From the IMG/VR virus record IMGVR_UViG_3300045988_182393, positions 1 through 64,000 of that record: a DNA stretch of 64,000 bases; one strand, 5' to 3'. Of this stretch, positions 257 to 61,228 are shown in pieces. Both the position numbers and the translations under genes were made by a program. This stretch comes from a virus. Numbering within the stretch: position 1 is the stretch's first letter; each line of letters starts with the position of its first letter. The notes under the pieces are model-generated. The model was not told the DNA's origin. It made no database searches and saw only the letters and a program-made list of their open reading frames with translations.

Positions 257-1525
257 ATGGCAAGCGAAAGAACCATTCTTCATTGTGATATGAACTGCTT
301 TTACGCCAGCTGCGAGATGGCCTACAATCCAAAGCTGCAGGGAAAATCAATTGCGGTATGTGGTGACCCGGAAAGGCGAAATGGCATCGTGTTGACTGCC
401 TCGTATCCGGCCAAATGGATGGGCGTGAAAACCGGAATGCCTCTATGGGAAGCACAGCAGCATTGCCGAGATATCATCTTTGTCCCGGCACACTATGACC
501 TTTATACCAGATACAGCGACTATACCAGAGAAATCTTCCTGCGCTTCACGGACCAGGTTGAACCGTTTGGCTTGGATGAGGCGTGGCTCGATTGTACCGC
601 AAGCCAGTCACTTTTTGGGACAGGGGAAAAGATAGCCAAGAAAATCTCTGATACCGTGAAGGATGAACTCGGCATTACCTGTTCGGTCGGAGTCAGTTGG
701 AATAAAGTCTTTGCGAAATTGGGGTCCGACTATAAAAAGCCGGATGCCATCACCGTCATATCAAGGTCAAACTGGAAAGATATCGTGTTCCCGCTGCCTG
801 CCACGGACCTTTTGTATGTCGGGTCCAGAACGGGGAAAAAGCTGGCAAACTACTGTGTCCATACAATCGGCGACTTGGCGACTGCCAATCCGAATTTTCT
901 GAAAGAAAAGCTTGGAAAAGTTGGCTCCATGCTATGGGGATTCGCAAATGGCCATGATACGGGAGCGGTAGCGAAATATGAAGGCAGAGAAGCTCAGGCA
1001 CCTATCAAAAGCATTGGCAACAGTTGGACCACACCAAGAGACTTGTTCACGGATGAAGATGTCTGGATAGTTCTCTACCTGCTTTCAGAAAGCGTGGCAG
1101 CAAGGCTCAGAGAGAATCATTTCCGATGTCGAGGGGTAGAAGTGAGCCTCCGAGATTCCAGCCTTTTCAGCTTTGAACGGCAAGTTAAGTTATCTCAGCC
1201 AACGATGCAGGAAAAGGATATTGCGGAGGCAGCATACCAGCTATATAAGAAGAACTACCGATGGAGTGAGCATCTCCGCTCGGTCGGCGTAAGAGCCATC
1301 GACCTTCGGCCAGATACGGAACCAAACCAGATATCATTTGAGTATAGCGCTGAAAAGCAGGAAGAGATAGAGAAGCTCGAATCGGCTATCGACAGCGTTC
1401 GCAATCGATTCGGATACTATTCTGTACAAAGGGCTGTCATGTACAAGGACCGCTTTCTCTCTCATTGTGATGCAAAGGAAGACCATATGATTCACCCACA
1501 TGGGTATTTGCAGGAGAGTATCTAA
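257..1525 (+). CDS. Y-family (UmuC/DinB/ImpB-like) translesion DNA polymerase
   Basis: 422 aa. N-terminal LHCDMNCFYASCE...SIAVCG and FGLDEAWLD...SVGVS are typical IMS/UmuC palm motifs. GGAGG RBS. Confidence 0.9.
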   Translation: MASERTILHCDMNCFYASCEMAYNPKLQGKSIAVCGDPERRNGIVLTASYPAKWMGVKTGMPLWEAQQHCRDIIFVPAHYDLYTRYSDYTREIFLRFTDQVEPFGLDEAWLDCTASQSLFGTGEKIAKKISDTVKDELGITCSVGVSWNKVFAKLGSDYKKPDAITVISRSNWKDIVFPLPATDLLYVGSRTGKKLANYCVHTIGDLATANPNFLKEKLGKVGSMLWGFANGHDTGAVAKYEGREAQAPIKSIGNSWTTPRDLFTDEDVWIVLYLLSESVAARLRENHFRCRGVEVSLRDSSLFSFERQVKLSQPTMQEKDIAEAAYQLYKKNYRWSEHLRSVGVRAIDLRPDTEPNQISFEYSAEKQEEIEKLESAIDSVRNRFGYYSVQRAVMYKDRFLSHCDAKEDHMIHPHGYLQESI

Positions 1526-5641: not shown

Positions 5642-8600
5642 ATGAGCACCAAAATCGTCATCAAAACAACGGACCGCGTTGTTCCGATGATTTATGCCTA
5701 TACCACTCCTGAGATTGCCCGCCATAACGGTTGGACGAAAATCGGCTACACCGAGCAGGATGTAGACAAGCGATTGAGCCAGCAGACCCATACTGCCGAT
5801 GTGGAATACAAAGAAGAATGGCGCGGCAATGCTACATTCGAGGATGGCTCCGGCGATACATTTACCGATAAAGATTTCCACCGCTATCTGCGCAAGCTGA
5901 ACATTGAGAACGACCCCAAAAACGAATGGTTCCATGTGACGGGACCTGTTTCCCGCAACCACTTCTATGATTTCCGTGCGAATCGCGGTATTTTGCAATC
6001 GCTGACCGCCGCAACTCCGTATAATCTGCGTGAGGAGCAGGAGGATGCGGTAGAAAAAACGCTGGATTACAGCCGCCTGCATACCAAGGGTGAATACCTC
6101 TGGAACGCAAAGCCGCGCTTCGGCAAAACACTTACGGCCTATGAGCTTTGCAAACAGATGGACGCAGACACGGTCCTTATCGTGACGAACCGCCCTGCGA
6201 TTGCAAACTCGTGGTATTCCGACTACGAGAAGTTCCTCGGTCCCGATTCCGGGTATCTGTTTGTGAGCGATACCAGCTCCCTGCAGGGGAAGCCTTTTGT
6301 TGTGAGCCGCAATCAGTATCTGGATATGCTGAACAACGACGACTACAAGTGCATCGAGTTCGTCAGCTTGCAGGACCTCAAAGGCTCCATTTACTTTGGC
6401 GGTGAATTTGAAAAGCTGAAAGAAGTCAATGACATTCATTGGGATGTTCTGATTATTGACGAAGCCCACGAGGGCGTAGATACCTACAAGACGGATGTGG
6501 CGTTCGACCATATTGACCGCAACTTTACGCTGCATCTGTCCGGCACGCCGTTTAAGGCCATTGCCAGCGAAAAATTCAAAGAGGACGCCATCTATAACTG
6601 GACCTATGCCGACGAGCAGAAGAAAAAACGCGATTGGCAGGGTGACCAGAGCGAGCAGAATCCCTACGCGAATTTGCCGCAGCTCAATATGTTCACCTAT
6701 CAGATGTCCGAGGTCGTTCGGGATGAACTGAAACAGGGCATTGAAATCAACGGCGAGACAGAAGAATGGGCGTTTGACCTAAATGAGTTTTTTGCAGTCA
6801 ATCAGGCCGGAAACTTTGTGCATGACAGCGCTGTGGACAAGTTCCTTGATGCGCTGACTACACAGACTAAGTTCCCGTTCTCCACACCGGAATTACGCGA
6901 TGAATTAAAGCATACGCTTTGGCTGCTGAACCGTGTGGACAGCGCCAAGGCTCTAGCCCGCAAGCTGAACAACCATCCTGTTTTCAAGGATTACAAGGTC
7001 GTCGCGGCAGTGGGTGACGGTAGATTGAACGATGATGATTCTGCCAAGAAAGCGTTTGACAGCGTGACCGAGGCTATCGCCCAGAACGACAAGACAATTA
7101 CGCTGTCTGTCGGACAGCTCACCACGGGCGTTACGATTCCAGAATGGACTGCTGTGCTGATGCTGAGCAGCATCAAGAGTGCATCCCTGTATATGCAGGC
7201 GGCGTTCCGTGCGCAGAATCCGTGCTTGTTCCACGACAAAGGCAAGTTCTACCGCAAGGAGAATGCTTATATCTTCGACTTCGACCCTGCGCGAACCCTT
7301 ATGATTTTTGAGGAGTTCGCAAATGACCTGTATGCCAGCACATCCGACGGGCGCGGAGATACCGAAACCCGCAAAAAGCACATCAAGGAACTGCTGAACT
7401 TCTTCCCGGTCATCGGTGAGGATGAAGACAGCGAGATGGTGGAGCTGGATGCCGAAAAGGTGCTTTCTATTCCGCGAAAGATTCGCTCCACAGAAGTTGT
7501 GAATCGCGGATTTATGTCCAACTATCTGTTTCAGAATATTTCCAATATCTTCGGCGCTCCGCAGGAGGTCGTGGACATTATTACAAAGTTCACCCCCGTG
7601 GACGAGCCGAAAAAGCAGGAAGTCAAGAAAGAAGATTTGGACCGCGTCCATGTGGATGAAAACGGCGATGTCAAAGTAGATGAGGGCTATGTTATCGGTT
7701 TGGCTGATGACATTTTTGGCGATAAAATCTATGATACTGTCGGCGAACAGGTCACGCAGGCTATTGATAAAGTCGCCGTTGACAACCAGCCCAAGGATAA
7801 GGCGCTGGAAGCGTTGCAGGAGGCTTTCAAGGCGCAGGCTGTTAAACCCATCGTGGCTGCTGCCACCTCCAATTACGGCACGGAAATCAAGGCTTCGGAT
7901 GCCAAGCGTGTAGAGAAGAAGCTGGGCGAGGATGCGGACCGTTTGGTGGCGCGGACTTACGGCGACTATCGTATCGAAACCAACCAAATCGAAAAAGAAC
8001 GCCATGAGCAGTTGGCTGCTGCTGCGCCCCACGAACAGGCAAAAATCAATCAGGAATTCGACCAGAAAAAGGCAGAGGCTACTGAAAAGCTGAAAACAGC
8101 TTTGAATGATACGGTCAGCAGCTTCGTGGAAGATGCCGCCAAAGAGACTGTCCGCAGCTATGAGACACAAATCGAGGAACGCAAAAAGAACGATGTGGAA
8201 GATACCATCCGCGACCATCTACGCGGTTTTGCCCGCACGATACCGTCATTTCTGATGGCCTATGGCACAGAGGATACCACTCTTGCCAATTTCGACCAAA
8301 TCGTTCCCGATGAAGTTTTCCAAGAAGTCACCAGCATCACGCTGGAGCAGTTCCGTTTCCTGCGCGATGGCGGTGATTACAAGGATACCGCCACAGGCGA
8401 AACGAAGCACTTTGACGGGAAGCTGTTTGATGAAGTCGTGTTTGATGATTCCATCAAAGAGTTCCTGCGGTTAAAGCGTGAACTGGCAAACTATTTTGAC
8501 CCGGCGAACGAAAAGGACATCTTCGACTACATTCCGCCGCAGCGCACGAACCAAATCTTTACCCCGAAAGCAACCGTGGCAAAGATGGTATCGCTTTTGG

Positions 8601-8938
8601 AAGAAGAAAATCCCGGATGCTTTAATGACCCGGACAAGACCTTTATTGACCTGTACATGAAATCGGGCCTGTACATTACCGAAATCGTGAAGCGTCTGTA
8701 CCAGAGCGAAGGCATGAAAGCTGCGTTCCCGAACTCCAAGGAGCGGCTCGAACACATCTTTGAAAAGCAGGTCTACGGTCTGGCTCCGTCCGAAATTATT
8801 TATCGCATTGCAACCAACTATATTCTTGGGTTCTCTGAGGAGCATAACGGAAAGCAGTATAACTTTCGTATGTGCGATGCATTGCCTTATGCAAAGGATG
8901 GGACGTTGAGCGAAAAGCTGGATGAGTTATTTGGATAA
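5642..8938 (+). CDS. T5orf172 (GIY-YIG-like) + SNF2/ResIII-type SF2 helicase with C-terminal coiled-coil and a degenerate methyltransferase motif X/I module
   Basis: N-terminus IYAYT...KIGYT...R...NEWF (GIY-YIG/T5orf172). KPRFGKT (motif I), LIIDEAHEG (DEAH), LHLSGTP (III), TGVTIPEW (V), QAAFRAQN (VI). C-terminus QIFTPKATVAKMV...TFIDLYMKSGLYI resembles methyltransferase motifs X and I. Confidence 0.8.
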   Translation: MSTKIVIKTTDRVVPMIYAYTTPEIARHNGWTKIGYTEQDVDKRLSQQTHTADVEYKEEWRGNATFEDGSGDTFTDKDFHRYLRKLNIENDPKNEWFHVTGPVSRNHFYDFRANRGILQSLTAATPYNLREEQEDAVEKTLDYSRLHTKGEYLWNAKPRFGKTLTAYELCKQMDADTVLIVTNRPAIANSWYSDYEKFLGPDSGYLFVSDTSSLQGKPFVVSRNQYLDMLNNDDYKCIEFVSLQDLKGSIYFGGEFEKLKEVNDIHWDVLIIDEAHEGVDTYKTDVAFDHIDRNFTLHLSGTPFKAIASEKFKEDAIYNWTYADEQKKKRDWQGDQSEQNPYANLPQLNMFTYQMSEVVRDELKQGIEINGETEEWAFDLNEFFAVNQAGNFVHDSAVDKFLDALTTQTKFPFSTPELRDELKHTLWLLNRVDSAKALARKLNNHPVFKDYKVVAAVGDGRLNDDDSAKKAFDSVTEAIAQNDKTITLSVGQLTTGVTIPEWTAVLMLSSIKSASLYMQAAFRAQNPCLFHDKGKFYRKENAYIFDFDPARTLMIFEEFANDLYASTSDGRGDTETRKKHIKELLNFFPVIGEDEDSEMVELDAEKVLSIPRKIRSTEVVNRGFMSNYLFQNISNIFGAPQEVVDIITKFTPVDEPKKQEVKKEDLDRVHVDENGDVKVDEGYVIGLADDIFGDKIYDTVGEQVTQAIDKVAVDNQPKDKALEALQEAFKAQAVKPIVAAATSNYGTEIKASDAKRVEKKLGEDADRLVARTYGDYRIETNQIEKERHEQLAAAAPHEQAKINQEFDQKKAEATEKLKTALNDTVSSFVEDAAKETVRSYETQIEERKKNDVEDTIRDHLRGFARTIPSFLMAYGTEDTTLANFDQIVPDEVFQEVTSITLEQFRFLRDGGDYKDTATGETKHFDGKLFDEVVFDDSIKEFLRLKRELANYFDPANEKDIFDYIPPQRTNQIFTPKATVAKMVSLLEEENPGCFNDPDKTFIDLYMKSGLYITEIVKRLYQSEGMKAAFPNSKERLEHIFEKQVYGLAPSEIIYRIATNYILGFSEEHNGKQYNFRMCDALPYAKDGTLSEKLDELFG

Positions 8939-19962: not shown

Positions 19963-20234
19963 CTCAAAAGCGCGGTTTTGTCCGCGCAGCTGCTCCAAAA
20001 GACAGCCTCCACGCGGCGAGCAGCGGGAACATGCTGGTCGAAGCGGCACGGCCGTCAGCTACCAGTGCCACTCGATGGATGAGGCGGTCGATATGGTCGC
20101 CGCCTTGTACAATGGCAGAAAAAACAGAAGCAGCGCAAGCATAACCATCCTGCAAAAATATATGCCGTTCATCTTTTTGGGTGGACGGCTTTTTGTTTTG
20201 TGAATACAGCGATTCAGTGGCGAAGCGAGCCGAT

Positions 20235-20291
20235 TTTACCAGCAGTTTGATATTCTGCGGCATGATTTCCAGCAGTTTGATACTCTGTGGG
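20235..20291. repeat. Two tandem 27-bp imperfect-palindromic repeats TTTYACCAGCAGTTTGATAYTCTGYGG
   Basis: 20235-20260 and 20265-20291. A third copy lies at 27046-27072. Each is CCAGCAG-N9-CTGCGG-like. Confidence 0.6.
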
Positions 20292-20664
20292 CAGTTGCAC
20301 AGCCGTGCAAATTGCATACAATGGGAATTGGAGAACAAAAAAAGCGATGCAAGGATGTATTTGTAATAAATGTGGCGGCTGTTTTTGGTATTCGCGAAAC
20401 AACACGAAATTAAACGAAACGCGAAGAGGATACAAGAAAAGACGAATGAAATCCGGCTGAGGCGGATAATACTTGTGCCGAGTAGTTTAAAGTCCGGACA
20501 ATGGGACAGCTAAAGTGGTAAAATGAAACTAGGAATACCTAAAATCAGAGTTAACCGAAAAAACAAAAACCATGAATGAATAATTGGTTGCTAAAAAGTA
20601 ACCGCTCGCTTTTATACCCAAACCAACAAATGACCCAAATCTGTTTAGGAAGGATAGATACAAA

Positions 20665-22830
20665 ATGGCAAGAAGGAAAACAAACGACTTGGAAAATCAG
20701 ATGTCGCTCATGGACATGATGGCATCGGAAAGCCCCGAATATACCGAAGAAGGCCCGGAAGAACTCTTGGACCCCGGCGAGGACATGGGGGACAGTGAAG
20801 GGCAGACGGATAAGCCCTTCAAACTCGTGGCGAACAAGACCACGAAGGCAAAGGTGAGCATCTCCACGCAGGCGCTGAATGTTGTGAAGGCGGTATATGC
20901 TGATACGGTCGAAACGAATTGGGAAGAGTTGTTTGACGGGTTCGACAGACTCTATGCTATCACTTTTTCGTCCGGTATCGAGTTCGTGAATAAGGTCATC
21001 AACAAGTTCTCGTATGCGGAAGTCGTGTTCGGATGCGAGAAAATCATCGCCAACGACATTGCTGCCATCATGTCGGTGCAAATCGACAGCGTGCAGCGGC
21101 TCGCTAAGTCTAAGTCGGCAGGGAACCTTGCGAACCGCCTCAATGACGGGTCCTTGCAGCTGTATGTATCGCGAGACACGAAATCGCACGAGAAAATCTT
21201 TATCTTGGAGAGCGCTGACCATAAGCGCGTCCGAGTCATCACCGGCAGTGCGAATATGTCGGCATCGGCGTTTTGCGGCATTCAGCGAGAGAATATCGTC
21301 TGCTTCGATGACGAGGCGGCATTTTCGCATTACAAGGTTCTGTTCGAGACCTTCCAGGAGACCTGCTCCGACAATGTCTCCTATAAGGCAGTCGTGAACA
21401 CCATGAACCAGGAAGATTATCTGAAAGAGAACATCAAAGAAGTGCCCGTCTTTCAGGCTATTGAAAAGCAGAAGCTTGTCTTTCTGGAACAGGCACAGCC
21501 TGAGGATGAGGTCGAATACGAGATAGCTGCCGATGTCAAGAAAATGCAGGAACTCGTCAAGCCAATCATGCCTAAGATGCCGGTACAGGCGAATCGTATT
21601 GTAGTGGCAGCGGAACCGATGCGCGTTTTCGGGAAACGATATACCGAGGTGCGGCGTGTGGCAGCTGAGGCAGTTAAGCAGCTCCCGAAATTACATATCG
21701 ACTATGATGCCGGGACCATGACCTTCAACGACGAGAATATCGACCTCAATCCGAATCTCAGCGAGGTGGCAAAGAACATCAAGAGCATCCAGAAGTTCTT
21801 CTTAGGCATGGACTACTTTTACGGCGATGTCGAACAGGCCAAGAAGGACTACTTCAAGTACATGACCTGGTATCTGGCTACTCCGTTCATGGCGTATCTG
21901 CGGTATTTCGCATCGAGGAACAACTACGATACGAAGCTGTTCCCGATGTACGGCGTTATATACGGCGACTCAAACGGCGGCAAGACGACCTTTATAAAAT
22001 TTCTTGTCAAACTCATGTGCGGTGAGACCGTTAAGATGAACACGACGGAGGATTTCACAGCCACAAGAATCGACGGCCTCAAACGAGTTTGTGAGGGACT
22101 GCCGCTGAACATCGACGACCTCGCCAAGACCCAGTTTCAGAACCATTCAGAACGGGTAATCAAGAACGATGAATGGGGTATCTCGGACAGGCTCGTGAAC
22201 TATCCTGCTGTATCTATCACATCGAATAAAATTACCTCGCTGACAAAAGACCTCTCGAAACGTGCTATCATCTGTCGAATTGGTGCTAAAATCGACAACG
22301 AGCGCGGTGCCAAAAACTCGAAGCGTGTGAATGAGAGTATGTCGGAGCTGACAACCGCGTTCTATGGCGAATATGTCCGCCGAATGCTTGTTTGCATCGA
22401 TGAGATGACGACGGAAATGCGTGAAAATGCGAATGGCAAGGAATACTTCCCGGATATCTTCCACGCTTCGTCTAGTGTCATTGCAGATATCTTCGAGGCA
22501 TGCGGAATCGATTTGCCGGACTATGTGCGTATCCTGTACTATAACGACTATATGGGTGATGAGAGCATTGGTCGTGCTGCAATTGAGAAAATCGAACTGG
22601 CATGGCAGGCTGACCCGAGCAAGTTCCGGGTTGATAAGAAGCAGAACAGGCTCATTTACTCCTATCCGCCGGATGGACCGTGGTACGAACTGAAATACAT
22701 TGCAGATGAGCTGCCGAACTCCCTCGAAGCAGAGATTTCTGGCGGCAACCAGCTTATCATGAACTACGAGCAGGCACAGGAATTGTTCGGCATCAAGTTT
22801 CGGCGCTGGCTGGGCATCTTTAACCTCTAA
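20665..22830 (+). CDS. PLD-like (single HKD) nuclease domain fused to an SF3 (D5/P4-type) helicase
   Basis: SHEKIFILESADHKRVRVITGSANMS (HxK...GSxN). C-terminus YGDSNGGKTT (Walker A), LPLNIDD (B), VSITSNK (motif C). Confidence 0.6.
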   Translation: MARRKTNDLENQMSLMDMMASESPEYTEEGPEELLDPGEDMGDSEGQTDKPFKLVANKTTKAKVSISTQALNVVKAVYADTVETNWEELFDGFDRLYAITFSSGIEFVNKVINKFSYAEVVFGCEKIIANDIAAIMSVQIDSVQRLAKSKSAGNLANRLNDGSLQLYVSRDTKSHEKIFILESADHKRVRVITGSANMSASAFCGIQRENIVCFDDEAAFSHYKVLFETFQETCSDNVSYKAVVNTMNQEDYLKENIKEVPVFQAIEKQKLVFLEQAQPEDEVEYEIAADVKKMQELVKPIMPKMPVQANRIVVAAEPMRVFGKRYTEVRRVAAEAVKQLPKLHIDYDAGTMTFNDENIDLNPNLSEVAKNIKSIQKFFLGMDYFYGDVEQAKKDYFKYMTWYLATPFMAYLRYFASRNNYDTKLFPMYGVIYGDSNGGKTTFIKFLVKLMCGETVKMNTTEDFTATRIDGLKRVCEGLPLNIDDLAKTQFQNHSERVIKNDEWGISDRLVNYPAVSITSNKITSLTKDLSKRAIICRIGAKIDNERGAKNSKRVNESMSELTTAFYGEYVRRMLVCIDEMTTEMRENANGKEYFPDIFHASSSVIADIFEACGIDLPDYVRILYYNDYMGDESIGRAAIEKIELAWQADPSKFRVDKKQNRLIYSYPPDGPWYELKYIADELPNSLEAEISGGNQLIMNYEQAQELFGIKFRRWLGIFNL

Positions 22831-22836
22831 TATGCA

Positions 22837-22872
22837 TGGCAGGTTCTTTTCGGAGCCTGCCTTCTTATTTCA
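22837..22872 (+). terminator. Rho-independent terminator
   Basis: ggcagg-ttcttttcggag-cctgcc then ttcttattt. Confidence 0.6.
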
Positions 22873-22891
22873 CAAAAATAGTTGCCCATTT

Positions 22892-22909
22892 GTGCGAATT
22901 GCAGACAAT
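22892..22909 (+). promoter_or_regulatory. Conserved promoter box GTGCGAA-N5-GACAAT
   Basis: tgtgcgaa ttgca gacaat. Confidence 0.55.
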
Positions 22910-22993
22910 CAGAAATAAAGCGTAAAGCAAAGGAGCTGAGTACCATCTCAAAATTTGCAAGCAAAAAGTTGATTGAGCGAAATTGCAATATCA

Positions 22994-23436
22994 TGAAAGA
23001 CTACGGCAACGGCTATTCCATTGAGGAGCTTGCCGCAAAATACAGGTTGAGCGTCCGTACATGCTATCGAGCGTTAGACGACGCGAAACAGGAGGCCAGA
23101 ATTCAGTTGGCGCAGGTAGAGGATGCTAGAAAGGCCGAAATTCTTGCGGCATACAAGAACAGTGTCCCTCTCAAGGAAATGATTGCGAAATTTAACGTGG
23201 CAGAAGGATATTGCAGCATGGTTGCCAACGATGCGGGCCTGACTGAAAACCGTAGAAATGAGCGCATCAAAATTCGGCAAAAACCCCGCAATGAGAATAT
23301 CTTTCGAGAATACGAGAGTGGCGTGCCGGTGCAGAAACTATCCGAAAAATATCAGCTCTCGGTTCCGGGCATTTACAAAGTGATTCAAAGAGTCAGAAAG
23401 CAGAAGGAGGCGATGGAGTTTTGCAATGGATTGTGA
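22994..23436 (+). CDS. Tandem-HTH-repeat DNA-binding protein (3 resolvase/sigma-region-4-like HTH modules)
   Basis: Repeats YSIEELAAKYRLSVRTCYRAL / VPLKEMIAKFNVAEGYCSMV / VPVQKLSEKYQLSVPGIYKVI. Start inferred at the first in-frame ATG. Confidence 0.55.
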
Positions 23437-24159: not shown

Positions 24160-24759
24160 ATGAGCTATGAACCCATTATCACACCGGGCAGGAATTTCTT
24201 TCTTGTCTCGACGGAGTACAAAGAGAGCTGCTCTGCCTGGTGCCGCAAGCAAATTAGAGCGACACTGAGGACCTGTCAGGGACGAGTCATCATCATTGAT
24301 GCAACGGGCGAGTACGCGGACTTGGCGCTTGAACATGACAGATTGATTCGAGAGAAAATCCCGTCCATCATTTATCGGTATAAGCTGGTGGACGGGAAAC
24401 CGTATATTGCTCATGTCATTGAAGTTGATACGGAAGCAAATGAAGCACCGCACCTGATTGTATACGATATCAGCCGGACCATAATCACCAGCTGGAAGGT
24501 CGGCGTGGAGGCAATTGATAAAATCCTGCAATCCTATGCCGTGATGCAGGACAGTGAAATCGCGTGGCTGTATGTTCCGCTGGACTTATATACCAATGTC
24601 AAGCCCGAAAGCGAATCCTGGAACATTTTGGAACGAACTATCAAGGGTAATGAAGGCAAGCTCATGACAGTACTGACGACTCGCAAATTCACCATTGGGA
24701 TGGTCCAGCGCTGTTTACATATGGCAAAAATCAAAAATAATTTGGAGGATAACAAATGA
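24160..24759 (+). CDS. hypothetical protein
   Basis: 199-aa ORF. Stop overlaps the next start. Confidence 0.5.
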   Translation: MSYEPIITPGRNFFLVSTEYKESCSAWCRKQIRATLRTCQGRVIIIDATGEYADLALEHDRLIREKIPSIIYRYKLVDGKPYIAHVIEVDTEANEAPHLIVYDISRTIITSWKVGVEAIDKILQSYAVMQDSEIAWLYVPLDLYTNVKPESESWNILERTIKGNEGKLMTVLTTRKFTIGMVQRCLHMAKIKNNLEDNK

Positions 24760-25643
24760 CCAATGAACAGCTGAGAATCGCATTGACGGCGAATGCCGTT
24801 ACCAAACAAACCCGAAACCATTTTGGGTTCAGTAACCCGTGTGGGAAGACTCTGGAAGAGTACAACAAATCTTCAACGCTTTGCTGTGTGACGGCAGCGC
24901 AGAAAATGAACACGCCGGGTTTTGAGCGTGTTTTGGCTGCGCAGATTTTTCCCTGCTTTACCATTGGCTGCTGGAATCAGACAAAGACGGTCTATGATTT
25001 TGACTACGAGTTTCAGAAAATGCTGATGGATACGGATGACGTGGCAATTCATCAGGATATTCTGCAGCGGCTTCCGATTCGTGATTTCTTTATCCCGGTG
25101 TATGACAGCTACGACTACAACGGTATGTTCGTGCATGTGGAATTTGAAGAGAAAGAGAAGACCACTGCTTTCGGCATCGTTCTTGTCGGCCCGGCCAAAG
25201 GCAGCCATGATGATTTCACGTTCCTGACTCTGCCTGCCTGGGCCAAAGAAAACCAGAGCTTGACGGAAGCAACCCGGAGTACGAAAGAATATCTGGAAAA
25301 GGCAGCAGGGCAGCGGCAAGTGAACGGTATCAGTGTTCCAGCCGTAATGGAAGAAGTGCCTTCGGTCTTCGACGACGGAACGCCTTATGTCCGGCTGGCA
25401 ATCCTGTGCGCCAACTATCTTGCCAGCAAGAACCCAGATGTTCGCCTTGAAACCTCCAAGAAGCGTGACCGCCCGGTTTTTGTATTCCAGGGAAAAGCAC
25501 AACGCATCAACATTAAACCGTATACCGTTGGTGAGAATGCAGCCAAAGAATACAAAAAGAATGGGGAAGGCAAAACTCCCCGCTGGCGGCATTACTGGTG
25601 CGGCAATGGCCGGGAACGTCGGGAATGCAAATTCATCTATTGA
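24756..25643 (+). CDS. hypothetical protein
   Basis: 295-aa ORF, translationally coupled to the previous gene. Confidence 0.5.
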   Translation: MTNEQLRIALTANAVTKQTRNHFGFSNPCGKTLEEYNKSSTLCCVTAAQKMNTPGFERVLAAQIFPCFTIGCWNQTKTVYDFDYEFQKMLMDTDDVAIHQDILQRLPIRDFFIPVYDSYDYNGMFVHVEFEEKEKTTAFGIVLVGPAKGSHDDFTFLTLPAWAKENQSLTEATRSTKEYLEKAAGQRQVNGISVPAVMEEVPSVFDDGTPYVRLAILCANYLASKNPDVRLETSKKRDRPVFVFQGKAQRINIKPYTVGENAAKEYKKNGEGKTPRWRHYWCGNGRERRECKFIY

Positions 25644-27045: not shown

Positions 27046-27072
27046 TTTTACCAGTACTTTGATATTTTGTGG
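27046..27072. repeat. Third copy of the 27-bp TTTTACCAGYASTTTGATAT..TGYGG repeat
   Basis: ttttaccagtactttgatattttgtgg. Confidence 0.5.
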
Positions 27073-27122
27073 TTATTGACAAACGGCGCAAAAGGTGCTT
27101 GAGTTAAAAGCCATTGCAAAAA

Positions 27123-27140
27123 AGTGCGATATCCATATAA
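27123..27140 (+). promoter_or_regulatory. Conserved promoter box GTGCGAT-N5-TATAAT
   Basis: agtgcgat atcca tataat upstream of 27172. Confidence 0.5.
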
Positions 27141-27171
27141 TAAATTGAAATTCAAAAGGGAGATACACATT

Positions 27172-30983: not shown

Positions 30984-31436
30984 ATGATTCGATTCAGAAA
31001 AGATACCCCTCGCTACTGGTTTATGAGTAACTATTATTCTTGCGAATTTGTGATGAATGGGATTCGTTACAAGAATGCCGAAGCAGCGTTTCAGAGCCAC
31101 AAGGTTCCGCTGGAAGAGCGCAAACAATTTTCAGACATGCCTCCGGCAACGGCTAAGCATTTTGGCCGTCATGTGGCTTTCCCTGCCAACTGGGACGAAA
31201 CCCGGGACGATGTAATGCGCCGCGTGGTGATGGCTAAATTCGAACAGAATAAAGACCTCAAGCAGCGTCTCCTCGAAACGGGAACGCAGCCAATCGAGGA
31301 AGATACCACCAGTTGGCACGATAACTACTGGGGAAACTGCCATTGCCCGAAATGCCGGAACATCCCGGGTCAGAACCGGCTTGGGATTATTCTGATGGAA
31401 ACGAGGGACAAGCTAAAAAAACAAACGAGTAAATAA
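30984..31436 (+). CDS. NADAR (YbiA/DUF1768) domain protein
   Basis: FMSNYYSCEFVMNGIRYKNAEAAFQSHK, MAKFEQNKDLKQRLLETG and NYWGN...GQNRLGIILMETRDKL match E. coli YbiA block for block. Confidence 0.85.
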   Translation: MIRFRKDTPRYWFMSNYYSCEFVMNGIRYKNAEAAFQSHKVPLEERKQFSDMPPATAKHFGRHVAFPANWDETRDDVMRRVVMAKFEQNKDLKQRLLETGTQPIEEDTTSWHDNYWGNCHCPKCRNIPGQNRLGIILMETRDKLKKQTSK

Positions 31437-34137: not shown

Positions 34138-34255
34138 GGGAAATATAAAATAAATAAGTGTAAGCCGCAGAGATTATGTTTCTGCGGCTCTTTCTTTTGT
34201 GGTCCCCATGCGGATGAAAATGTCTGCGTGGGGATTATTTATTGGGAGATATAAC

Positions 34256-35515
<1,260 letters not shown>

Positions 35516-35719: not shown

Positions 35720-36400
35720 ATGAAACAGAAAAAAGAGCAAAATGGGCTTATCTTCAAAAGCTATTTTCATGCACCTAACGAAGGCGAAGTGTACAAAAGT
35801 GCAATGAACAAGTTGTCAGACAAAACACTTAACAACTTTACGCCTATTTCTATGGCTACAACAGCAAAAGAAGAATTTAAAAACAAATTGGCTATTGAGG
35901 AATGGGTGAATTCGTATGTGGGGGCGGCTAAACAATTAGCACAACTAAATCAAAACAGATGTAACGGTGGCAAGACCGGGTATGCGCTTTATAAATACAA
36001 TTATACTTTGCCAACTGTGTTTCTCATAAGACACGCGGCAGAACTTGCAATAAAAGAAGCCATCGATAAAAGTGGGAAAGTGCCGAATAGCTCTACCCAC
36101 GACCTTGACAAGTTGTGGAATTCTATATCGAGTCAACTTCCTGAAAGTAAAACTCCAAACGATAGGAAAACCATACAGCAAGTGCGTACGTTTTTACAAT
36201 ATATATCCCACTTGGATAAAGATGGAACAAAAGCACGATATGCGGTTGATAAAAATGGAAATTATACGCACGCGAAATTCGAATGGGTGGATTGTATAAA
36301 ACTGTCTAATACATTAGATGCTTTTGTTACAACACTTCGTTCCATAGACTGGGAGCATGTTAAGGCTTCAAAGGAAAAAGAAGCAAAGAAAGAAGGATAA
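35720..36400 (+). CDS. hypothetical protein (low-GC)
   Basis: 226 aa, AT-rich codon usage. Sits between the methyltransferase and the Type IV restriction gene. Confidence 0.5.
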   Translation: MKQKKEQNGLIFKSYFHAPNEGEVYKSAMNKLSDKTLNNFTPISMATTAKEEFKNKLAIEEWVNSYVGAAKQLAQLNQNRCNGGKTGYALYKYNYTLPTVFLIRHAAELAIKEAIDKSGKVPNSSTHDLDKLWNSISSQLPESKTPNDRKTIQQVRTFLQYISHLDKDGTKARYAVDKNGNYTHAKFEWVDCIKLSNTLDAFVTTLRSIDWEHVKASKEKEAKKEG

Positions 36401-36403
36401 ATC

Positions 36404-37540
36404 ATGAAAATCACCGAAACTAAAATCAAGGTATCTGACCTTGTCGAGAACTACAAGGATAATGGCGATGGCGGTGTCTTTGGCTACAATGACCGTCTTA
36501 CGATTCGCCCGTCCTTCCAGCGTGAGTTTATTTACGGGGAGAAGCAGCGTGCAGCCGTCATCGATTCCGTAATGAACGGATTTCCGCTGAACGTCATGTA
36601 CTGGTCTAAGACCGGGGCTGACACATACGAGGTTCTTGATGGGCAGCAGCGTACCGTCTCTATTGCCCAGTACATCAACAAGGATTTCCCTGTCACGGTC
36701 AACGGCAATGATAAGTTCTTCCAGAACCTGACCAACGAAGAAAAGCAGGCAATTCTGGACTACGAGCTGACGGTCTATGTCTGTGAAGGCACGGAAGCCG
36801 AGAAGCTGGAATGGTTTAAGCGTATCAACATCGCTGGAGAAGTTCTGACTCCGCAAGAGCTGCTGAACGCTACCTATACAGGTCCGTGGCTGGCTGATGC
36901 AAAGAACTACTTCTCAAAGCGCAACTGTGTGGCCGCGAAGATGGCTGATGGTTACTTGAAAGGGAACCCTATTCGGCAGGAACTGCTGGAAAAGGCTCTG
37001 ACTTGGATTGCGGACCGGGATGGTCTGGAATCCGGGCAGATGTACATGGCTATCCACCAGCATGACGAGGATGCCAATGACCTCTGGCTTTACTTCCAGT
37101 CAGTTATCAACTGGGCAAAAATGCTGTTCCCGACTAAGCGGAAGGGGATTACTGATGCACAGGCGTGGGGACTGCTCTACAACAAGTACCATGCCATGCA
37201 GTACAACAGCAACGCTCTGGAAGCAGACATCAAGCAGCTCGTGATGGACGATGATGTGACGAAAAAGGCAGGCATCGTTCCGTACATCCTGTCTGACCGT
37301 ACATGGCGTGACGAGAAGCACCTGTCTCTGCGTGCGTTTACTGAATCCCAGAAACTCCGTGCCTACGAGCGGCAGGGTCACAAATGTCCCTTGTGCGTTG
37401 CAAATGGCATCAACACCGAGTATGCCTTTGAGGATATGGAAGGTGACCACATCATTCCTTGGAGCAAGGGCGGGCATACTACGGATGACAACCTGCAGAT
37501 GTTGTGCAAGAAGTGCAATGCGGCGAAGTCGGATATGTAA
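36404..37540 (+). CDS. GmrSD-like Type IV restriction enzyme (N-terminal DUF262/ParB-like + C-terminal HNH)
   Basis: VLDGQQRTVSI (DGQQR). C-terminus CPLC...GDHIIPWSKGGHTTDDNLQMLCKKCNAAK (HNH). Confidence 0.8.
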   Translation: MKITETKIKVSDLVENYKDNGDGGVFGYNDRLTIRPSFQREFIYGEKQRAAVIDSVMNGFPLNVMYWSKTGADTYEVLDGQQRTVSIAQYINKDFPVTVNGNDKFFQNLTNEEKQAILDYELTVYVCEGTEAEKLEWFKRINIAGEVLTPQELLNATYTGPWLADAKNYFSKRNCVAAKMADGYLKGNPIRQELLEKALTWIADRDGLESGQMYMAIHQHDEDANDLWLYFQSVINWAKMLFPTKRKGITDAQAWGLLYNKYHAMQYNSNALEADIKQLVMDDDVTKKAGIVPYILSDRTWRDEKHLSLRAFTESQKLRAYERQGHKCPLCVANGINTEYAFEDMEGDHIIPWSKGGHTTDDNLQMLCKKCNAAKSDM

Positions 37541-59057: not shown

Positions 59058-59104
59058 GCACAATACTTACCATAAATTACCAGAAAGAAAAACATTGTGC
59101 ATCT

Positions 59105-59122
59105 GTGCGAATTGCATATAAT
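59105..59122 (+). promoter_or_regulatory. Conserved promoter box GTGCGAA-N5-TATAAT
   Basis: tctgtgcgaa ttgca tataat. Confidence 0.6.
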
Positions 59123-59234
59123 ACAAAATATAGAACGAAAGGCATCAAAAAACATCGTTGGTCGGGCAAAATCCGACCGAAAGGCTAGGGCGGGCTCAGT
59201 TTTGAACCTGCTCTTTCTTTTTATCGGAGGCTTT

Positions 59235-59762
59235 ATGTCAAACAAAGAAGAACGCATGAACCGCAATAAAAGCATCATCGAAGATTACAAAAATGGAAAG
59301 CCGATTTTAGAAATCGCGAGGGAATATAATCTTTCAGAAACGATGTGCTACAAGATTCTAAAAGGTACGCAGGAGCCGCCTCGTTATTTTGAAAAAAAGA
59401 GGAAGAGACTTGCCACTCGAAATGAGCAGATTGTTAAACAGTATAAAGGCGGTATGACGGCCAGAGAATTGGGCAAGATGTACGGCATTTCCATGCAGCG
59501 TATTTATGCAATCTTGCATTCGAGCGGAGAGTACGAAAGCCAAAAATACAATCATATTGAAACGGCTCTCAAAAAAGAGAAAAAGATGCGGAACCAAACT
59601 TTTCTTGATGCTTACACAAAAAATCCTCAAAAATCGATTATCGAGTTGAGCAGGGAGGTAAATATCAGCCCTTCACTAGGTTATCTTATCCTTCATCAAA
59701 ATGGGATTTACCAGTATAACGTAAAAGCCAGAGCTAAGGAGAATAGCGAAAATGCCGATTAA
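59235..59762 (+). CDS. Tandem-HTH-repeat DNA-binding protein (paralog 2)
   Basis: Repeats PILEIAREYNLSETMCYKIL / TARELGKMYGISMQRIYAIL / SIIELSREVNISPSLGYLIL. Confidence 0.6.
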   Translation: MSNKEERMNRNKSIIEDYKNGKPILEIAREYNLSETMCYKILKGTQEPPRYFEKKRKRLATRNEQIVKQYKGGMTARELGKMYGISMQRIYAILHSSGEYESQKYNHIETALKKEKKMRNQTFLDAYTKNPQKSIIELSREVNISPSLGYLILHQNGIYQYNVKARAKENSENAD

Positions 59763-60270
59763 CAAGATTACCCACGTGTGTCTAACTCATGACAAAGTCA
59801 GGGCGCGAAATGAAAAGATGCTGGAGGATGCCGATAACGGTATGTCCCAGGAACAGCTGGCCGAAAAGTATCAAATCTGTGTTTCTACTGTCCGATATAG
59901 TCTGAAGGACTTTTACGAAGAACAGGCCCGGCAGAGAAAAGCAAAGAAGAAAGCCTGGCAAACCCAGATGATTCATGAATATGAGATGGGCGCAAAATCT
60001 CCGGAGCTTCAGGAAAAATACGGCATCAGTGGAACGCTCTTTTATCGGATTCTTCATGCGCACGGAAAGAATGGCCGACAAATCCACAGCCAAAACCGTA
60101 TCGAGACCGGCAAGAAAAGAAACGCCGAGATGGTCAGGAAATACAAAAACGGCGTTTCTGTCAAAGAGCTTGCGGAAGAATACGGGCTCAAAAAGGGAAG
60201 TGTATATCGCGCCATGAAGCGGTATAATCCAGGCCCAGGGAAAAGTAAAAGTTGTCAAAGTGAGGAATAA
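59752..60270 (+). CDS. Tandem-HTH-repeat DNA-binding protein (paralog 3)
   Basis: SQEQLAEKYQICVSTVRYSL / SPELQEKYGISGTLFYRIL / SVKELAEEYGLKKGSVYRAM. Confidence 0.6.
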   Translation: MPINKITHVCLTHDKVRARNEKMLEDADNGMSQEQLAEKYQICVSTVRYSLKDFYEEQARQRKAKKKAWQTQMIHEYEMGAKSPELQEKYGISGTLFYRILHAHGKNGRQIHSQNRIETGKKRNAEMVRKYKNGVSVKELAEEYGLKKGSVYRAMKRYNPGPGKSKSCQSEE

Positions 60271-60274
60271 TTGC

Positions 60275-61228
60275 ATGGCTGCATCAAAGAAAGATGTTGC
60301 GAAGCAGCAGGTCAAAGAAGACCGAGAAAAAGTCCGGGAAATGTATCTTTCTGGCAAAACTGTCAAGGAAATCGCCAAGGAAACGTATTTTTCAAGCTCT
60401 TATTGCTATGCCATGGTGAGAGACCTAGCAAAAGAAAAGAATCTTGCAAAGAAAGCAAAAAGAGCACCTCTCGACGAAGCTATGATTCAAGATGCGAAAG
60501 CCGGGATGACGGTTGCTGAAATCGCAAAGAAGCATGGCGTGACCTATCAGCAGTGCTACTATACTGTTTCTGAATACGCTCAAGCTACGATTAAGAAGAA
60601 CAAGAAAAAGCAGTCTGCTGCCACGAAAGTTCGCAATGCGGCTATGTTGGAAGATGCGAAAGCCGGAATGACTGATAAGGAAATCGCCAAAAAATACTTT
60701 TTGTCTCGAAGCAGTGTCCGTACCGTCCTTGCAGGGCATTTACATACAAATTCCAAAAAGTTGGATGAAAGGCGCAAGGCGATTCTTGCGGATTATGAGG
60801 CAGGAACGTCCTCAAAAGACATCTGTGAGAAATACGGTATTTCAAAATCCACTCTTTACAAGGACATGCGCCAAATTGGAAAAACCTGTCAGGAATACTA
60901 TCACAAGGCGCTGAAAGACAAGACCAATCGAAGGAATTCCGATATTCGAAGCAAAATCGAAAGAGGGGTCTCGGTCAGCACTATTGCCAAGGAATACGGA
61001 ATCTCTAAAACGGCGATTTATGAAACGTTTCATCAGGAAAATGTCAGAGCTGGAATTTTACAGAAACGCGGCCGTCCGCGAAAAAACACGGAACGTAATG
61101 CACTGATTGCTAAACGCCACAGGGAAGGCGAGAAGGTGCAGGCGCTTGCCACTGAATATAATCTCTCTGTTTCGACGGTAAACACTATTTGCAGTAGAAA
61201 CAAAAATCAGAATATAACCTCATATTAA
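60275..61228 (+). CDS. Tandem-HTH-repeat DNA-binding protein (paralog 4, ~7 modules)
   Basis: TVKEIAKETYFSSSYCYAMV, TVAEIAKKHGVTYQQCYYTV, TDKEIAKKYFLSRSSVRTVL, SSKDICEKYGISKSTLYKDM, SVSTIAKEYGISKTAIYETF, KVQALATEYNLSVSTVNTIC. Confidence 0.6.
   Translation: MAASKKDVAKQQVKEDREKVREMYLSGKTVKEIAKETYFSSSYCYAMVRDLAKEKNLAKKAKRAPLDEAMIQDAKAGMTVAEIAKKHGVTYQQCYYTVSEYAQATIKKNKKKQSAATKVRNAAMLEDAKAGMTDKEIAKKYFLSRSSVRTVLAGHLHTNSKKLDERRKAILADYEAGTSSKDICEKYGISKSTLYKDMRQIGKTCQEYYHKALKDKTNRRNSDIRSKIERGVSVSTIAKEYGISKTAIYETFHQENVRAGILQKRGRPRKNTERNALIAKRHREGEKVQALATEYNLSVSTVNTICSRNKNQNITSY

What the first reader, a model, noticed from the sequence alone, without database searches (positions are those of the whole stretch)
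20235..22830. PLD-like (single HKD) nuclease domain fused to an SF3 D5/P4-type helicase, preceded by a 700-bp non-coding region with 27-bp dyad repeats
The 721-aa protein combines an HxK(x)4D-like/GSxN phospholipase-D-family nuclease motif (SHEKIFILESADHKRVRVITGSANMS) with a C-terminal SF3 helicase (Walker A GDSNGGKTT, Walker B LNIDD, motif C VSITSN). SF3 helicases in mobile elements are normally fused to primase or origin-binding domains, not to PLD nucleases.

The upstream intergenic region (19963-20664) is AT-rich. It contains two tandem copies of a 27-bp imperfect palindrome (CCAGCAG-N9-CTGCGG), with a third copy at 27046-27072. This looks like an origin or operator region. The gene may be the replication initiator of the element with an unusual nicking or processing domain, or it may be a nuclease-helicase defense or anti-defense effector.
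Basis: partly seen in the sequence, partly recalled or inferred. Interest (0 to 1): 0.5.

Follow-up and report, generated by a model that had tools for sequence, protein, structure and literature searches.

The report
PLD nuclease fused to helicase-like ATPase
This gene on a very common human-gut mobile element joins a restriction-enzyme-type DNA-cutting domain to a ring-helicase-like motor; it belongs to a large, uncharacterised family that sits beside bacterial immune genes, so it is most likely an ATP-driven conflict nuclease, not the element's replication starter.

Summary
ORF 20665-22830 (721 aa) has a single-HKD PLD nuclease domain; Pfam RE_NgoFVII and PLDc_2 both score above their cut-offs. 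It also has a C-terminal P-loop ATPase with Walker A, Walker B, a sensor-1 Asn and an Arg finger.

The fusion is not unusual. It is a widespread uncharacterised family (PLD + Pfam PF27394 'Aq_aa27') with 927 clusters at 50% identity. dN/dS is about 0.05.

Relatives lie:
- in ICE cargo next to R-M, GmrSD and BREX genes;
- beside a pAgo gene on an archaeal plasmid;
- alone in alphaproteobacterial chromosomes.

Some host elements carry their own Rep genes. I favour an ATP-dependent defence or inter-element conflict nuclease (0.5) over a replication initiator (0.12).

The "700-bp non-coding region" is a mosaic:
- a truncated HDV-like ribozyme;
- a decayed small-ORF remnant;
- a terminator;
- two boxes with a 30-bp period;
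- promoter-like hexamers and a leader.

The box occurs only three times in 64 kb. It is conserved in related elements and marks two operon starts. It looks like a promoter or operator element, not an origin.

The parts
19989..20030 (+). 5' part (P1/P3) of an HDV-like self-cleaving ribozyme, truncated by a deletion. It is a remnant, not part of the PLD gene's machinery.
   Evidence: Rfam RF02682 scores 33.3 bits here, below the gathering score of 44. The intact version in related loci scores 48-61 bits. Among 149 sequences (148 loci plus the window), the intact form was counted 63 times and the window-type truncated form 23 times.
20031..20144 (+). Decayed C-terminal remnant of a small (~65 aa) ORF that is intact in related elements.
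   Evidence: The window reads ..SYQCHSMDEAVDMVAALYNG.., matching the end of the L017 ORF (..SYQCRSMDEAVDMVAALYNGKKPEAAQA). The N-terminus is missing and the frame is shifted. The deletion junction is at about 20020-20030.
20164..20199 (+). Intrinsic-terminator-like hairpin plus T-run. It closes the upstream transcription unit.
   Evidence: Stem of 11 pairs (6 GC), followed by TTTTTGTTTT.
20236..20260 (+). Distal regulatory box (TTACCAGCAGTTTGATATTCTGCGG).
   Evidence: It is conserved upstream of the gene in related loci: two copies in 92 loci, one in 12, three in 1.
20266..20290 (+). Proximal regulatory box, 30 bp after the first. Its core TGATACTCT resembles an extended -10.
   Evidence: It ends 4 nt before the -35-like hexamer.
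20295..20322 (+). Promoter-like element TTGCAC-16 nt-TACAAT. This is my inference from the sequence and its conservation.
   Evidence: Read. These are the best-conserved columns of the upstream region, at 0.91-0.94.
20495..20524 (+). Second promoter-like site (CGGACA-18-TGgTAAAAT) inside the leader.
   Evidence: It is only a consensus match.
20323..20664 (+). AT-rich leader (39% GC) with RBS AGGAAGGA at 20647-20654. No conserved RNA structure was found.
   Evidence: RNAalifold consensus energy is -0.56 kcal/mol. The leader is absent in the 86%-identity clade.
20665..22830 (+). CDS, 721 aa: PLD nuclease plus Aq_aa27 (Cch-like AAA+) protein.
   Evidence: dN/dS is 0.035-0.06 against six homologs.
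20872..21369 (+). Single-HKD PLD nuclease domain (aa ~70-235), with catalytic H175/K177 and N197 of GSAN.
   Evidence: Pfam PF09565 and PF13091 score above cut-off. 43 of 46 family members hit RE_NgoFVII. Foldseek matches 4rct_A NgoAVII R at E 2e-5. Conservation is shown.
21685..22827 (+). C-terminal module (aa 341-721). From the secondary-structure order it reads as a small beta domain, helices, the AAA+ core, lid helices and a C-terminal alpha/beta domain. The core carries Walker A 434-441, Walker B 484-485, sensor-1 N521 and Arg finger R533.
27048..27072 (+). Third copy of the box, ahead of the next operon. TTGACA at 27076-27081 follows after 3 nt, and TTGCAA-16-TATAAT lies at 27114-27141.
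   Evidence: A single box in this promoter context was found in 36 related loci.

Best explanation
The 721-aa protein is a member of a widespread, experimentally uncharacterised family of stand-alone ATP-dependent nucleases. I propose it is used in conflicts between mobile elements and hosts, as a defence or restriction-like enzyme.

**Proposed mechanism (inferred)**
- The C-terminal AAA+ module, whose fold resembles the ring helicases Cch and SaPIbov1 Rep, oligomerises on DNA.
- It uses ATP to translocate or to switch conformation. Walker A K440, Walker B D484/D485, sensor-1 N521 and the trans-acting R533 would do this.
- The N-terminal single-HKD PLD domains of neighbouring subunits pair to form one composite active site (H175/K177/N197 twice).
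- That site cuts DNA without metal ions through a covalent phospho-histidine intermediate, as in Nuc, BfiI and NgoAVII.
- How the enzyme picks its target is unknown.

**In this window**
- The gene is the first gene of an operon on a very common human-gut Bacillota extrachromosomal element that IMG/VR classes as viral.
- It is followed by a Mor-type regulator gene and, three genes further on, an AcrVA2-like gene.
- Its expression is set by a conserved 22-25-nt box present in two copies here.
- The same box precedes the next operon at 27 kb.

**Shown:** domain identities, conserved catalytic residues, fold similarity, purifying selection, genomic contexts, and conservation and position of the box.

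**Inferred:** oligomeric state, nuclease and ATPase activity, defence role, and what binds the box.
For: **Domains and fold**
- The PLD domain is of the restriction-endonuclease type.
- The AAA+ motifs are invariant across the family.
- The C-terminal model is confident and is closest to Cch and SaPIbov1 Rep.
- Selection is strongly purifying on both domains, with omega 0.02-0.05.

**Family size**
- 927 clusters at 50% identity reach E<=1e-3 and 283 reach E<1e-30. Most are full-length proteins of 650-690 aa.

**Contexts of relatives**
- Beside HaeIII R-M and a Schlafen/AlbA_2 gene (L060).
- Beside Vsr, Dcm, NmeDI and GmrSD (L062).
- Beside an Eco57I-type methylase and a BsuBI/PstI endonuclease (L064).
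- Directly before BrxA, BrxB, BrxC and PglX (L148).
- Two genes after a Piwi/pAgo gene on a haloarchaeal plasmid (L150).
- As a lone gene between housekeeping genes in large alphaproteobacterial contigs (L058, L059, L065, L147).
- L001 carries Rep3, ParA and ParB, and L064 carries RepA_N.

**Cassette behaviour**
- The gene with its leader moves as a cassette between different elements: L001 matches only window 20374-22902.
- Synteny breaks at about 20030 and 22902 in most loci.

**Precedent**
- PLD N-terminal nuclease plus a variable C-terminal module is a known design for single-gene defence nucleases, including BfiI, SauUSI and END (PMC12191111).
Against: - There are no experimental data for any family member.
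- PADLOC gives only a weak ZacB hit to the PLD part (E 0.0024), so the family is not a recognised defence system.
- The defence-island association rests on about a dozen inspected contexts, not on a genome-wide statistic.
- The closest solved folds are replication initiator-helicases of mobile elements.
- Here the gene sits among genes that look anti-defence (AcrVA2-like, NADAR), which fits an offensive or establishment role as well as a defensive one.
- The model shows no clear pre-sensor-1 beta-hairpin between Walker B and sensor 1; that stretch is helix 488-503 plus a loop. True helicase activity is therefore uncertain.
Confidence: 0.5

Rival explanations
1. The protein is a replication initiator-helicase of the element. 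The PLD domain nicks an origin and stays covalently attached through phospho-histidine. The Cch/Rep-like ATPase then unwinds the DNA. This would be analogous to HUH-SF3 Rep proteins, and the repeats would be iterons.
For: - From general knowledge, PLD nucleases work through a covalent intermediate that could conserve bond energy.
- Direct repeats lie upstream of the gene.
- The gene is present in every contig of this element family that was sampled.
Against: - Many relatives are lone chromosomal genes flanked by housekeeping genes, with no mobile element around them.
- Some elements that carry relatives have their own Rep3 or RepA_N initiators.
- In L001 the gene is present without the boxes.
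- Box copy number is only 1-3, and a single copy also sits before an unrelated operon 6.8 kb away.
- In the 86% clade the boxes lie 48-100 nt before the ATG with no AT-rich unwinding region.
- No primase or polymerase partner gene is adjacent.
Confidence: 0.12
2. The protein is an offensive or establishment factor of the element. It would be an early-expressed nuclease-motor that degrades or processes host or competitor DNA, or clears obstacles during entry, acting together with the neighbouring anti-defence genes.
For: - It is the first gene of an operon that also holds a Mor-type activator and an AcrVA2-like gene.
- A NADAR gene and an orphan EcoRI-type methylase follow in downstream transcription units.
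- It shares its control box with the next operon, which encodes a ResIII/SNF2 helicase.
- The window resembles an anti-defence or leading-type region.
Against: - The same family occurs as lone chromosomal genes and in ICE cargo next to R-M and BREX systems. There a host-protective role is the simpler reading.
- Nothing in the sequence separates offence from defence.
Confidence: 0.2
3. For the upstream repeats only: they are binding sites for a transcription factor, for example one of the element's multi-HTH Mor-like proteins, and are not promoters themselves.
For: - Conserved flanks (CC at positions 1-2, G21, G22) extend beyond the -10-like core.
- The proximal box ends 3-4 nt before a -35-like hexamer at both window promoters.
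- The 30-bp spacing puts copies on one face of the helix.
- Four Mor-type multi-HTH genes are present in the window.
Against: - In the 86% clade only 48 nt separate the proximal box from the ATG, and no other promoter is visible there. The box core TGATATTAT may therefore be the extended -10 itself.
- The most conserved core positions (G11, A14, T18) match the key positions of an extended -10.
Confidence: 0.45

Closest known systems
Pfam PF27394 'Aq_aa27' proteins with an N-terminal PLD domain. NCBI names them 'phospholipase D family protein' or 'restriction endonuclease PLD domain-containing protein'.
   Same: - Same two-domain architecture and length.
- 24-50% identity over nearly the whole protein.
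- Same invariant residues.
- Homologs 96-99% identical to the window protein carry the precomputed PF27394 hit.
   Different: - The window clade adds about 50-65 acidic, disordered N-terminal residues.
- No member has a tested function.
SCCmec Cch (PDB 5dgk) and SaPIbov1 Rep (PDB 8tch): self-loading MCM-like helicases of staphylococcal mobile elements.
   Same: - Both are encoded on mobile elements.
   Different: - Only 12-13% identity, and no sequence-level match to any PDB chain.
- Those proteins have no nuclease domain and act at an adjacent origin.
- Here a PLD nuclease is fused, and no origin is evident.
SauUSI (PDB 7clg) and NgoAVII (PDB 4rct): NTP-dependent restriction enzymes with PLD nuclease domains.
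   Same: - A restriction-type single-HKD PLD nuclease is coupled to an NTPase motor.
- NgoAVII R is the best fold match to the PLD part (E 2e-5), and SauUSI ranks third for the whole chain.
- Single-gene defence use of PLD plus a variable C-terminal domain is documented (PMC12191111).
   Different: - SauUSI's motor is a helicase domain (PMC12191111), an SF2 type with a modified-DNA reader by my recollection. I also recall that NgoAVII needs a separate ATPase subunit.
- Here the motor is a Cch-like AAA+ domain in the same chain, and no recognisable modification reader is present.
SF3 helicases of viruses and plasmids (vaccinia D5, papillomavirus E1, polyomavirus LTag, SaPI5 PriRep, P4 alpha).
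   Same: - Short Walker A to Walker B spacing, sensor-1 Asn (ITSN) and a following Arg.
   Different: - These score clearly lower than Cch and SaPIbov1 Rep.
- SF3 Pfam models (RNA_helicase, DUF5906, VapE) are hit only below threshold, in 6, 3 and 1 of 46 members.
- No primase or origin-binding domain is present.

Membership tests
PLD superfamily nucleases (Nuc/BfiI/NgoFVII type) | HxK ... GSxN catalytic motif in a single-HKD domain | tested here: met
   - S-H175-E-K177 ... G-S-A-N197 is present.
- K177 is invariant, and H175, S195 and N197 are at least 90% conserved in 46 diverse members.
- The classical Asp four residues after Lys is not conserved here.
PLD superfamily nucleases (Nuc/BfiI/NgoFVII type) | Profile match above the curated threshold, and a PLD fold | tested here: met
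   - PF09565 scores 30.2 bits (cut-off 23.8) and PF13091 scores 27.6 (cut-off 27).
- 43 of 46 members hit PF09565.
- Foldseek matches 4rct_A at E 2e-5, probability 1.0. The N-terminal half of that model is only medium confidence.
PLD superfamily nucleases (Nuc/BfiI/NgoFVII type) | Metal-independent DNA cleavage through a phospho-histidine intermediate | not testable with these tools
   This needs biochemistry.
Pfam PF27394 (Aq_aa27) | Match to the family profile | tested here: met
   - Precomputed hits exist in homologs 96-99% identical to the window protein and in all distant relatives.
- The model is absent from the local Pfam copy, so the window protein itself was not scored.
SF3 helicases (D5/P4 type) | Walker A, Walker B, motif C (sensor-1 Asn) and Arg finger | tested here: met
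   GDSNGGKT 434-441, NIDD 482-485, ITSN 518-521 and K532-R533 are conserved. These motifs are shared by AAA+ proteins in general.
SF3 helicases (D5/P4 type) | Profile match to SF3 families (RNA_helicase, Pox_D5/D5_N, DUF5906, VapE) | tested here: not met
   Only sub-threshold hits were found: RNA_helicase at E 0.072 in the window protein, and 6, 3 and 1 of 46 members for RNA_helicase, DUF5906 and VapE.
SF3 helicases (D5/P4 type) | Closest fold relatives are SF3 helicases, with a beta-hairpin (B' motif) between Walker B and motif C | tested here: inconclusive
   - The model has helix 488-503 plus an 11-residue loop before the sensor-1 strand, and no clear hairpin.
Cch / SaPIbov1-Rep MCM-like self-loading helicases | Fold similarity across the ATPase and flanking domains | tested here: met
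   [not shown]
Cch / SaPIbov1-Rep MCM-like self-loading helicases | Detectable sequence homology | tested here: not met
   No PDB chain reaches E<0.4 with the protein or the family profile. Identity in the structural alignments is 12-13%.
Cch / SaPIbov1-Rep MCM-like self-loading helicases | Acts as initiator at an adjacent iteron origin, with helicase activity | not testable with these tools
   Context argues against this role. Relatives occur as lone chromosomal genes, and separate Rep genes are present in the carrier elements L001 and L064.
Iteron-type replication origin (for the repeats) | An array of direct repeats next to an AT-rich unwinding region and tied to the initiator gene | tested here: not met
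   - Copy number is 1-3.
- A lone copy precedes another operon.
- L001 carries the gene without boxes.
- In one clade the boxes lie 48-100 nt before the ATG.
Known anti-phage defence systems (PADLOC-DB v2) | Profile match to a catalogued defence protein | tested here: not met
   The only hit is ZacB at E 0.0024, 14.8 bits, to the PLD region.

The most novel reading that the evidence does not exclude
The protein could be a new class of replication or DNA-transfer initiator. In it, a PLD nuclease would take the place of the HUH nuclease of Rep proteins. It would nick DNA, hold the end through a covalent phospho-histidine bond, and hand the strand to its own fused Cch/MCM-like ring helicase. On this reading the chromosomal lone copies would be domesticated or decayed relatives.
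Probability: 0.07. Interest if true: 0.85.

Novelty: new variant of a known kind. Interest (0 to 1): 0.45.

Why it matters
- If the family is an ATP-dependent nuclease used in defence, it would add a widespread single-protein system (at least 900 clusters at 50% identity, across Bacteria and Archaea). It would pair a restriction-type PLD nuclease with an MCM/Cch-like ring motor, a pairing not yet studied.
- The variant here is carried by one of the commonest large extrachromosomal elements in human-gut metagenomes. Clusters of 5005 and 2893 sequences were found, on contigs up to about 300 kb. Its activity could therefore shape phage and plasmid traffic in the gut.
- The ATPase fold also links these proteins to the replication helicases of SCCmec and SaPI elements, which bears on how mobile-element helicases get recruited to other jobs.

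Tried and rejected
- **Phage databases:** megablast and tblastn found no match, and PHROGs gave no hit for the protein.
- **PDB by sequence:** searches with the protein and with a family profile found nothing meaningful.
- **Literature:** 'aq_aa27' returned only irrelevant hits. Searches for PLD with SF3 or MCM-like found no description of this architecture.
- **Locus searches:**
  - The search for related loci with the diverse alignment A2 failed because no stretch was conserved enough.
  - With A1 it returned only close gut relatives, so diverse contexts came from the look-up of encoding contigs.
  - The afdb50 fold library was unavailable.
- **Structured RNA in the leader:** rejected. No Rfam family matches it, the RNAalifold consensus is -0.56 kcal/mol, and the leader is replaced in a sister clade.
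- **Conserved palindrome:** rejected. Arm positions 5 and 19 vary independently (C5 with A19, T5 with G19), and only GCAG/CTGC is complementary.
- **Mokosh, DISARM DrmC and Zorya membership:** rejected, because PADLOC gave no supporting match.
- **A functional HDV ribozyme in the window:** rejected. The P4 stem and the 3' strand of P2 are deleted, and the score is 33 bits against a gathering score of 44.
Full report
**What is there**

The ORF at 20665-22830 (+) encodes 721 aa and is preceded by a good ribosome-binding site, AGGAAGGA, at 20647-20654. Pfam places a restriction-endonuclease-type PLD domain at aa 144-236. RE_NgoFVII scores 30.2 bits against a cut-off of 23.8, and PLDc_2 scores 27.6 against 27. 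In the C-terminal half Pfam finds only weak P-loop hits (AAA_22 and RNA_helicase, E 0.04-0.07). PHROGs gives nothing. PADLOC gives only a weak ZacB hit to the PLD part, and NCBIfam gives nothing useful.

**The fusion is a family, not an oddity**

- The protein has hundreds of near-identical relatives in gut metagenomes, including clusters of 5005 and 2893 sequences. All carry PLD plus the newer Pfam family PF27394, named 'Aq_aa27'.
- An exhaustive search of 1.84 billion cluster representatives found 927 clusters at E<=1e-3 and 283 at E<1e-30. Most are full-length proteins of 650-690 aa with the same architecture.
- Relatives at 24-28% identity are common in Acetobacteraceae and other Proteobacteria and in Acidobacteriota. 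Relatives at 44-51% identity occur in Lachnospiraceae.
- Across 46 diverse members, K177, R190, G439, K440, N521 and R533 are invariant. H175, S195, N197, Q207 and E209 are at least 90% conserved.
- RE_NgoFVII is hit in 43 of 46 members. SF3-type models are hit only weakly and rarely.
- dN/dS against six homologs is 0.035-0.06, and both domains are constrained.

**Fold**

The full-length AlphaFold model was mediocre (pLDDT 59). Even so, its best PDB matches were the NgoAVII R protein for the PLD part (E 2e-5) and the SCCmec Cch helicase (E 2.3e-4).

A second model covered aa 335-721 with a deeper alignment and was confident (pLDDT 91.1, pTM 0.85).

- Foldseek agreed. Cch scored E 1.4e-5 over 381 columns, followed by polyomavirus large T helicases and ASFV PrimPol.

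PMC9371898 classes the SaPIbov1-type Rep with MCM as SF6, cites Cch as an 'MCM-like helicase', and places SaPI Rep1 and PriRep5 in SF3. The ATPase is therefore a replicative-helicase-like AAA+ domain nearest to Cch and SaPIbov1 Rep. The model shows a helix and a loop between Walker B and sensor 1, not a clear beta-hairpin. Helicase activity itself remains unproven.

**Context**

The window belongs to a large element that is abundant in human-gut assemblies. Fifty-three IMG/VR contigs of 26-346 kb and 80 metagenome contigs of up to 302 kb carry homologs at 86-100% identity. One genome hit is a Clostridiales MAG.

Genes annotated by Pfam or PHROGs scans in the window:
- a Y-family (ImpB/UmuC-type) polymerase
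- methyltransferases
- ResIII/SNF2 and UvrD-like helicases
- flotillin and vWA proteins
- a Mor-type regulator directly downstream of the PLD gene
- an AcrVA2-like gene
- NADAR, HEPN and GmrSD genes
- three more multi-HTH Mor-like genes

No structural phage genes were seen among the ORFs scanned.

Contexts of more distant relatives:

| Setting | Locus | Neighbours |
|---|---|---|
| Bacillota mobilisable element | L060 | HaeIII R-M, Schlafen/AlbA_2 |
| Bacillota conjugative element | L062 | Vsr, Dcm, NmeDI, GmrSD |
| Bacillota ICE | L064 | Eco57I-type methylase, BsuBI/PstI endonuclease |
| Bacillota conjugative element | L148 | BrxA, BrxB, BrxC, PglX directly downstream |
| Haloarchaeal plasmid | L150 | Piwi/pAgo gene two genes upstream |
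| Large alphaproteobacterial contigs | L058, L059, L065, L147 | lone gene among housekeeping genes |
| Gut plasmid-like element | L001 | Rep3, ParA, ParB |

- An AraC-type gene often sits immediately upstream in the Bacillota cases.
- L064 also carries RepA_N.
- Between different elements only the gene and its leader are shared: L001 matches only window 20374-22902. Synteny breaks at about 20030 and 22902 in most loci. This is cassette behaviour, typical of accessory conflict genes.

**The upstream 702 bp is a mosaic**

1. **19989-20051** matches the HDV-like ribozyme family RF02682 at only 33 bits.
   - Related loci have an intact copy right after the vWA gene, scoring 48-61 bits against a gathering score of 44.
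   - A deletion at about 20020-20030 removed the ribozyme's 3' half in the window and in 22 other loci. The intact form was counted 63 times.
2. **20031-20144** is the frameshifted C-terminal remnant of a small ORF that is intact elsewhere.
3. **20164-20199** is a strong terminator-like hairpin.
4. **20236-20260 and 20266-20290** are two direct copies of a box with a 30-bp period.
5. **TTGCAC-16-TACAAT at 20295-20322** follows the proximal box after 4 nt. It is the best-conserved stretch of the region.
6. **An AT-rich leader** follows, holding a second promoter-like site and no conserved RNA structure.

**The box**

- It occurs exactly three times in the window. The third copy (27048-27072) lies 3 nt before a consensus TTGACA, ahead of the next operon.
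- Upstream of the PLD gene, 92 related loci have two copies, 12 have one and 1 has three. Thirty-six loci keep the single copy at the second operon.
- In the 86%-identity clade the long leader is missing and the two boxes lie 48-100 nt before the ATG.
- The invariant core positions (G11, A14, T18 of TTTGATATTCT) match an extended -10 element.

I conclude that the box is a transcription-control element shared by two operons. It is either a promoter core or an operator. I cannot tell which, and I found nothing that marks it as an origin.

**Interpretation**

The best-supported reading is a stand-alone ATP-dependent PLD nuclease used in conflicts between hosts and mobile elements. In design it parallels SauUSI and NgoAVII, but with a Cch/MCM-like AAA+ motor in the same chain.

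Single-HKD PLD domains must pair to form an active site, as established for Nuc and BfiI. An oligomeric ATPase ring would provide that pairing. This step is my inference.

The replication-initiator idea is attractive because of the Cch/Rep fold and the covalent chemistry of PLD enzymes. It is hard to square with lone chromosomal copies, with separate Rep genes in some carrier elements, and with the behaviour of the boxes. An offensive or establishment role on this element cannot be separated from a defensive one by sequence alone.

**Verdict**

The gene is a new, abundant member of a catalogued but uncharacterised family. The family itself is a new variant of the known theme of a PLD nuclease coupled to an NTPase motor. 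Interest is moderate.

Noticed in passing
window 19989-20051 (+); intact copies at L012 6581-6650, L017 7978-8047, L038 7280-7348, L021 7900-7971: An HDV-like self-cleaving ribozyme (Rfam RF02682, the F. prausnitzii type) sits directly after the vWA gene in this element family. It scores 48-61 bits where intact (gathering score 44). In the window it is truncated by a deletion and scores 33 bits. The intact form was counted 63 times and the truncated form 23 times among 149 sequences.
   Followed up: yes
window ~20020-20144; L012 6623-9355; L017 8020-9366: The gap between the vWA gene and the PLD gene is a rearrangement hot spot. Related loci carry 1.3-2.7 kb more here, with three paralogous small ORFs of about 65-80 aa. 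L012 also has an IS200/IS605-type TnpB-like ORF (7223-8323). The window keeps only a frameshifted tail of one small ORF.
   Followed up: partly
window 24756-25643, 30984-31436, 34199-35515, 35720-37540: Downstream genes include an AcrVA2-like protein (from the annotation of a close homolog), NADAR, an orphan EcoRI-type adenine methylase, a HEPN protein and GmrSD with an HNH domain. This is a mix of anti-defence and defence genes, as seen in establishment or leading regions.
   Followed up: partly
window 22882-23436 and 59097-61225: There are four genes for proteins with tandem HTH repeats of the Mor / late-activator type, three of them consecutive. They are candidate binders of the conserved box.
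   Followed up: no
window 20665-20862 versus L001 and L038: Against L001 and L038, synonymous divergence of codons 1-66 is 0.05-0.08, while the rest of the gene is about 1.0. This points to a recent recombination breakpoint inside the 5' end of the gene. Together with the leader similarity seen in the alignment, the leader appears to travel with the first ~200 nt of the gene.
   Followed up: partly
L126 6881-7000 (and L116, L123, L127, L138, L143): In the 86%-identity clade the 340-nt leader is absent. Two boxes lie 48-100 nt before the ATG, and the proximal core reads TGATATTAT, a near-consensus extended -10.
   Followed up: partly
L150 766-6137 (Salinirubellus plasmid); L148 8001-18016: A haloarchaeal family member, annotated 'tyrosyl-DNA phosphodiesterase', lies two genes after a Piwi/pAgo gene. 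A Bacillota member lies immediately upstream of a complete BREX cluster.
   Followed up: no
window 257-1525, 5642-8938: A Y-family (ImpB/UmuC-type) polymerase gene lies at the start of the window. At 5642-8938 there is a 1098-aa fusion of T5orf172 and a ResIII helicase, next to an Eco57I-type methylase fragment.
   Followed up: no
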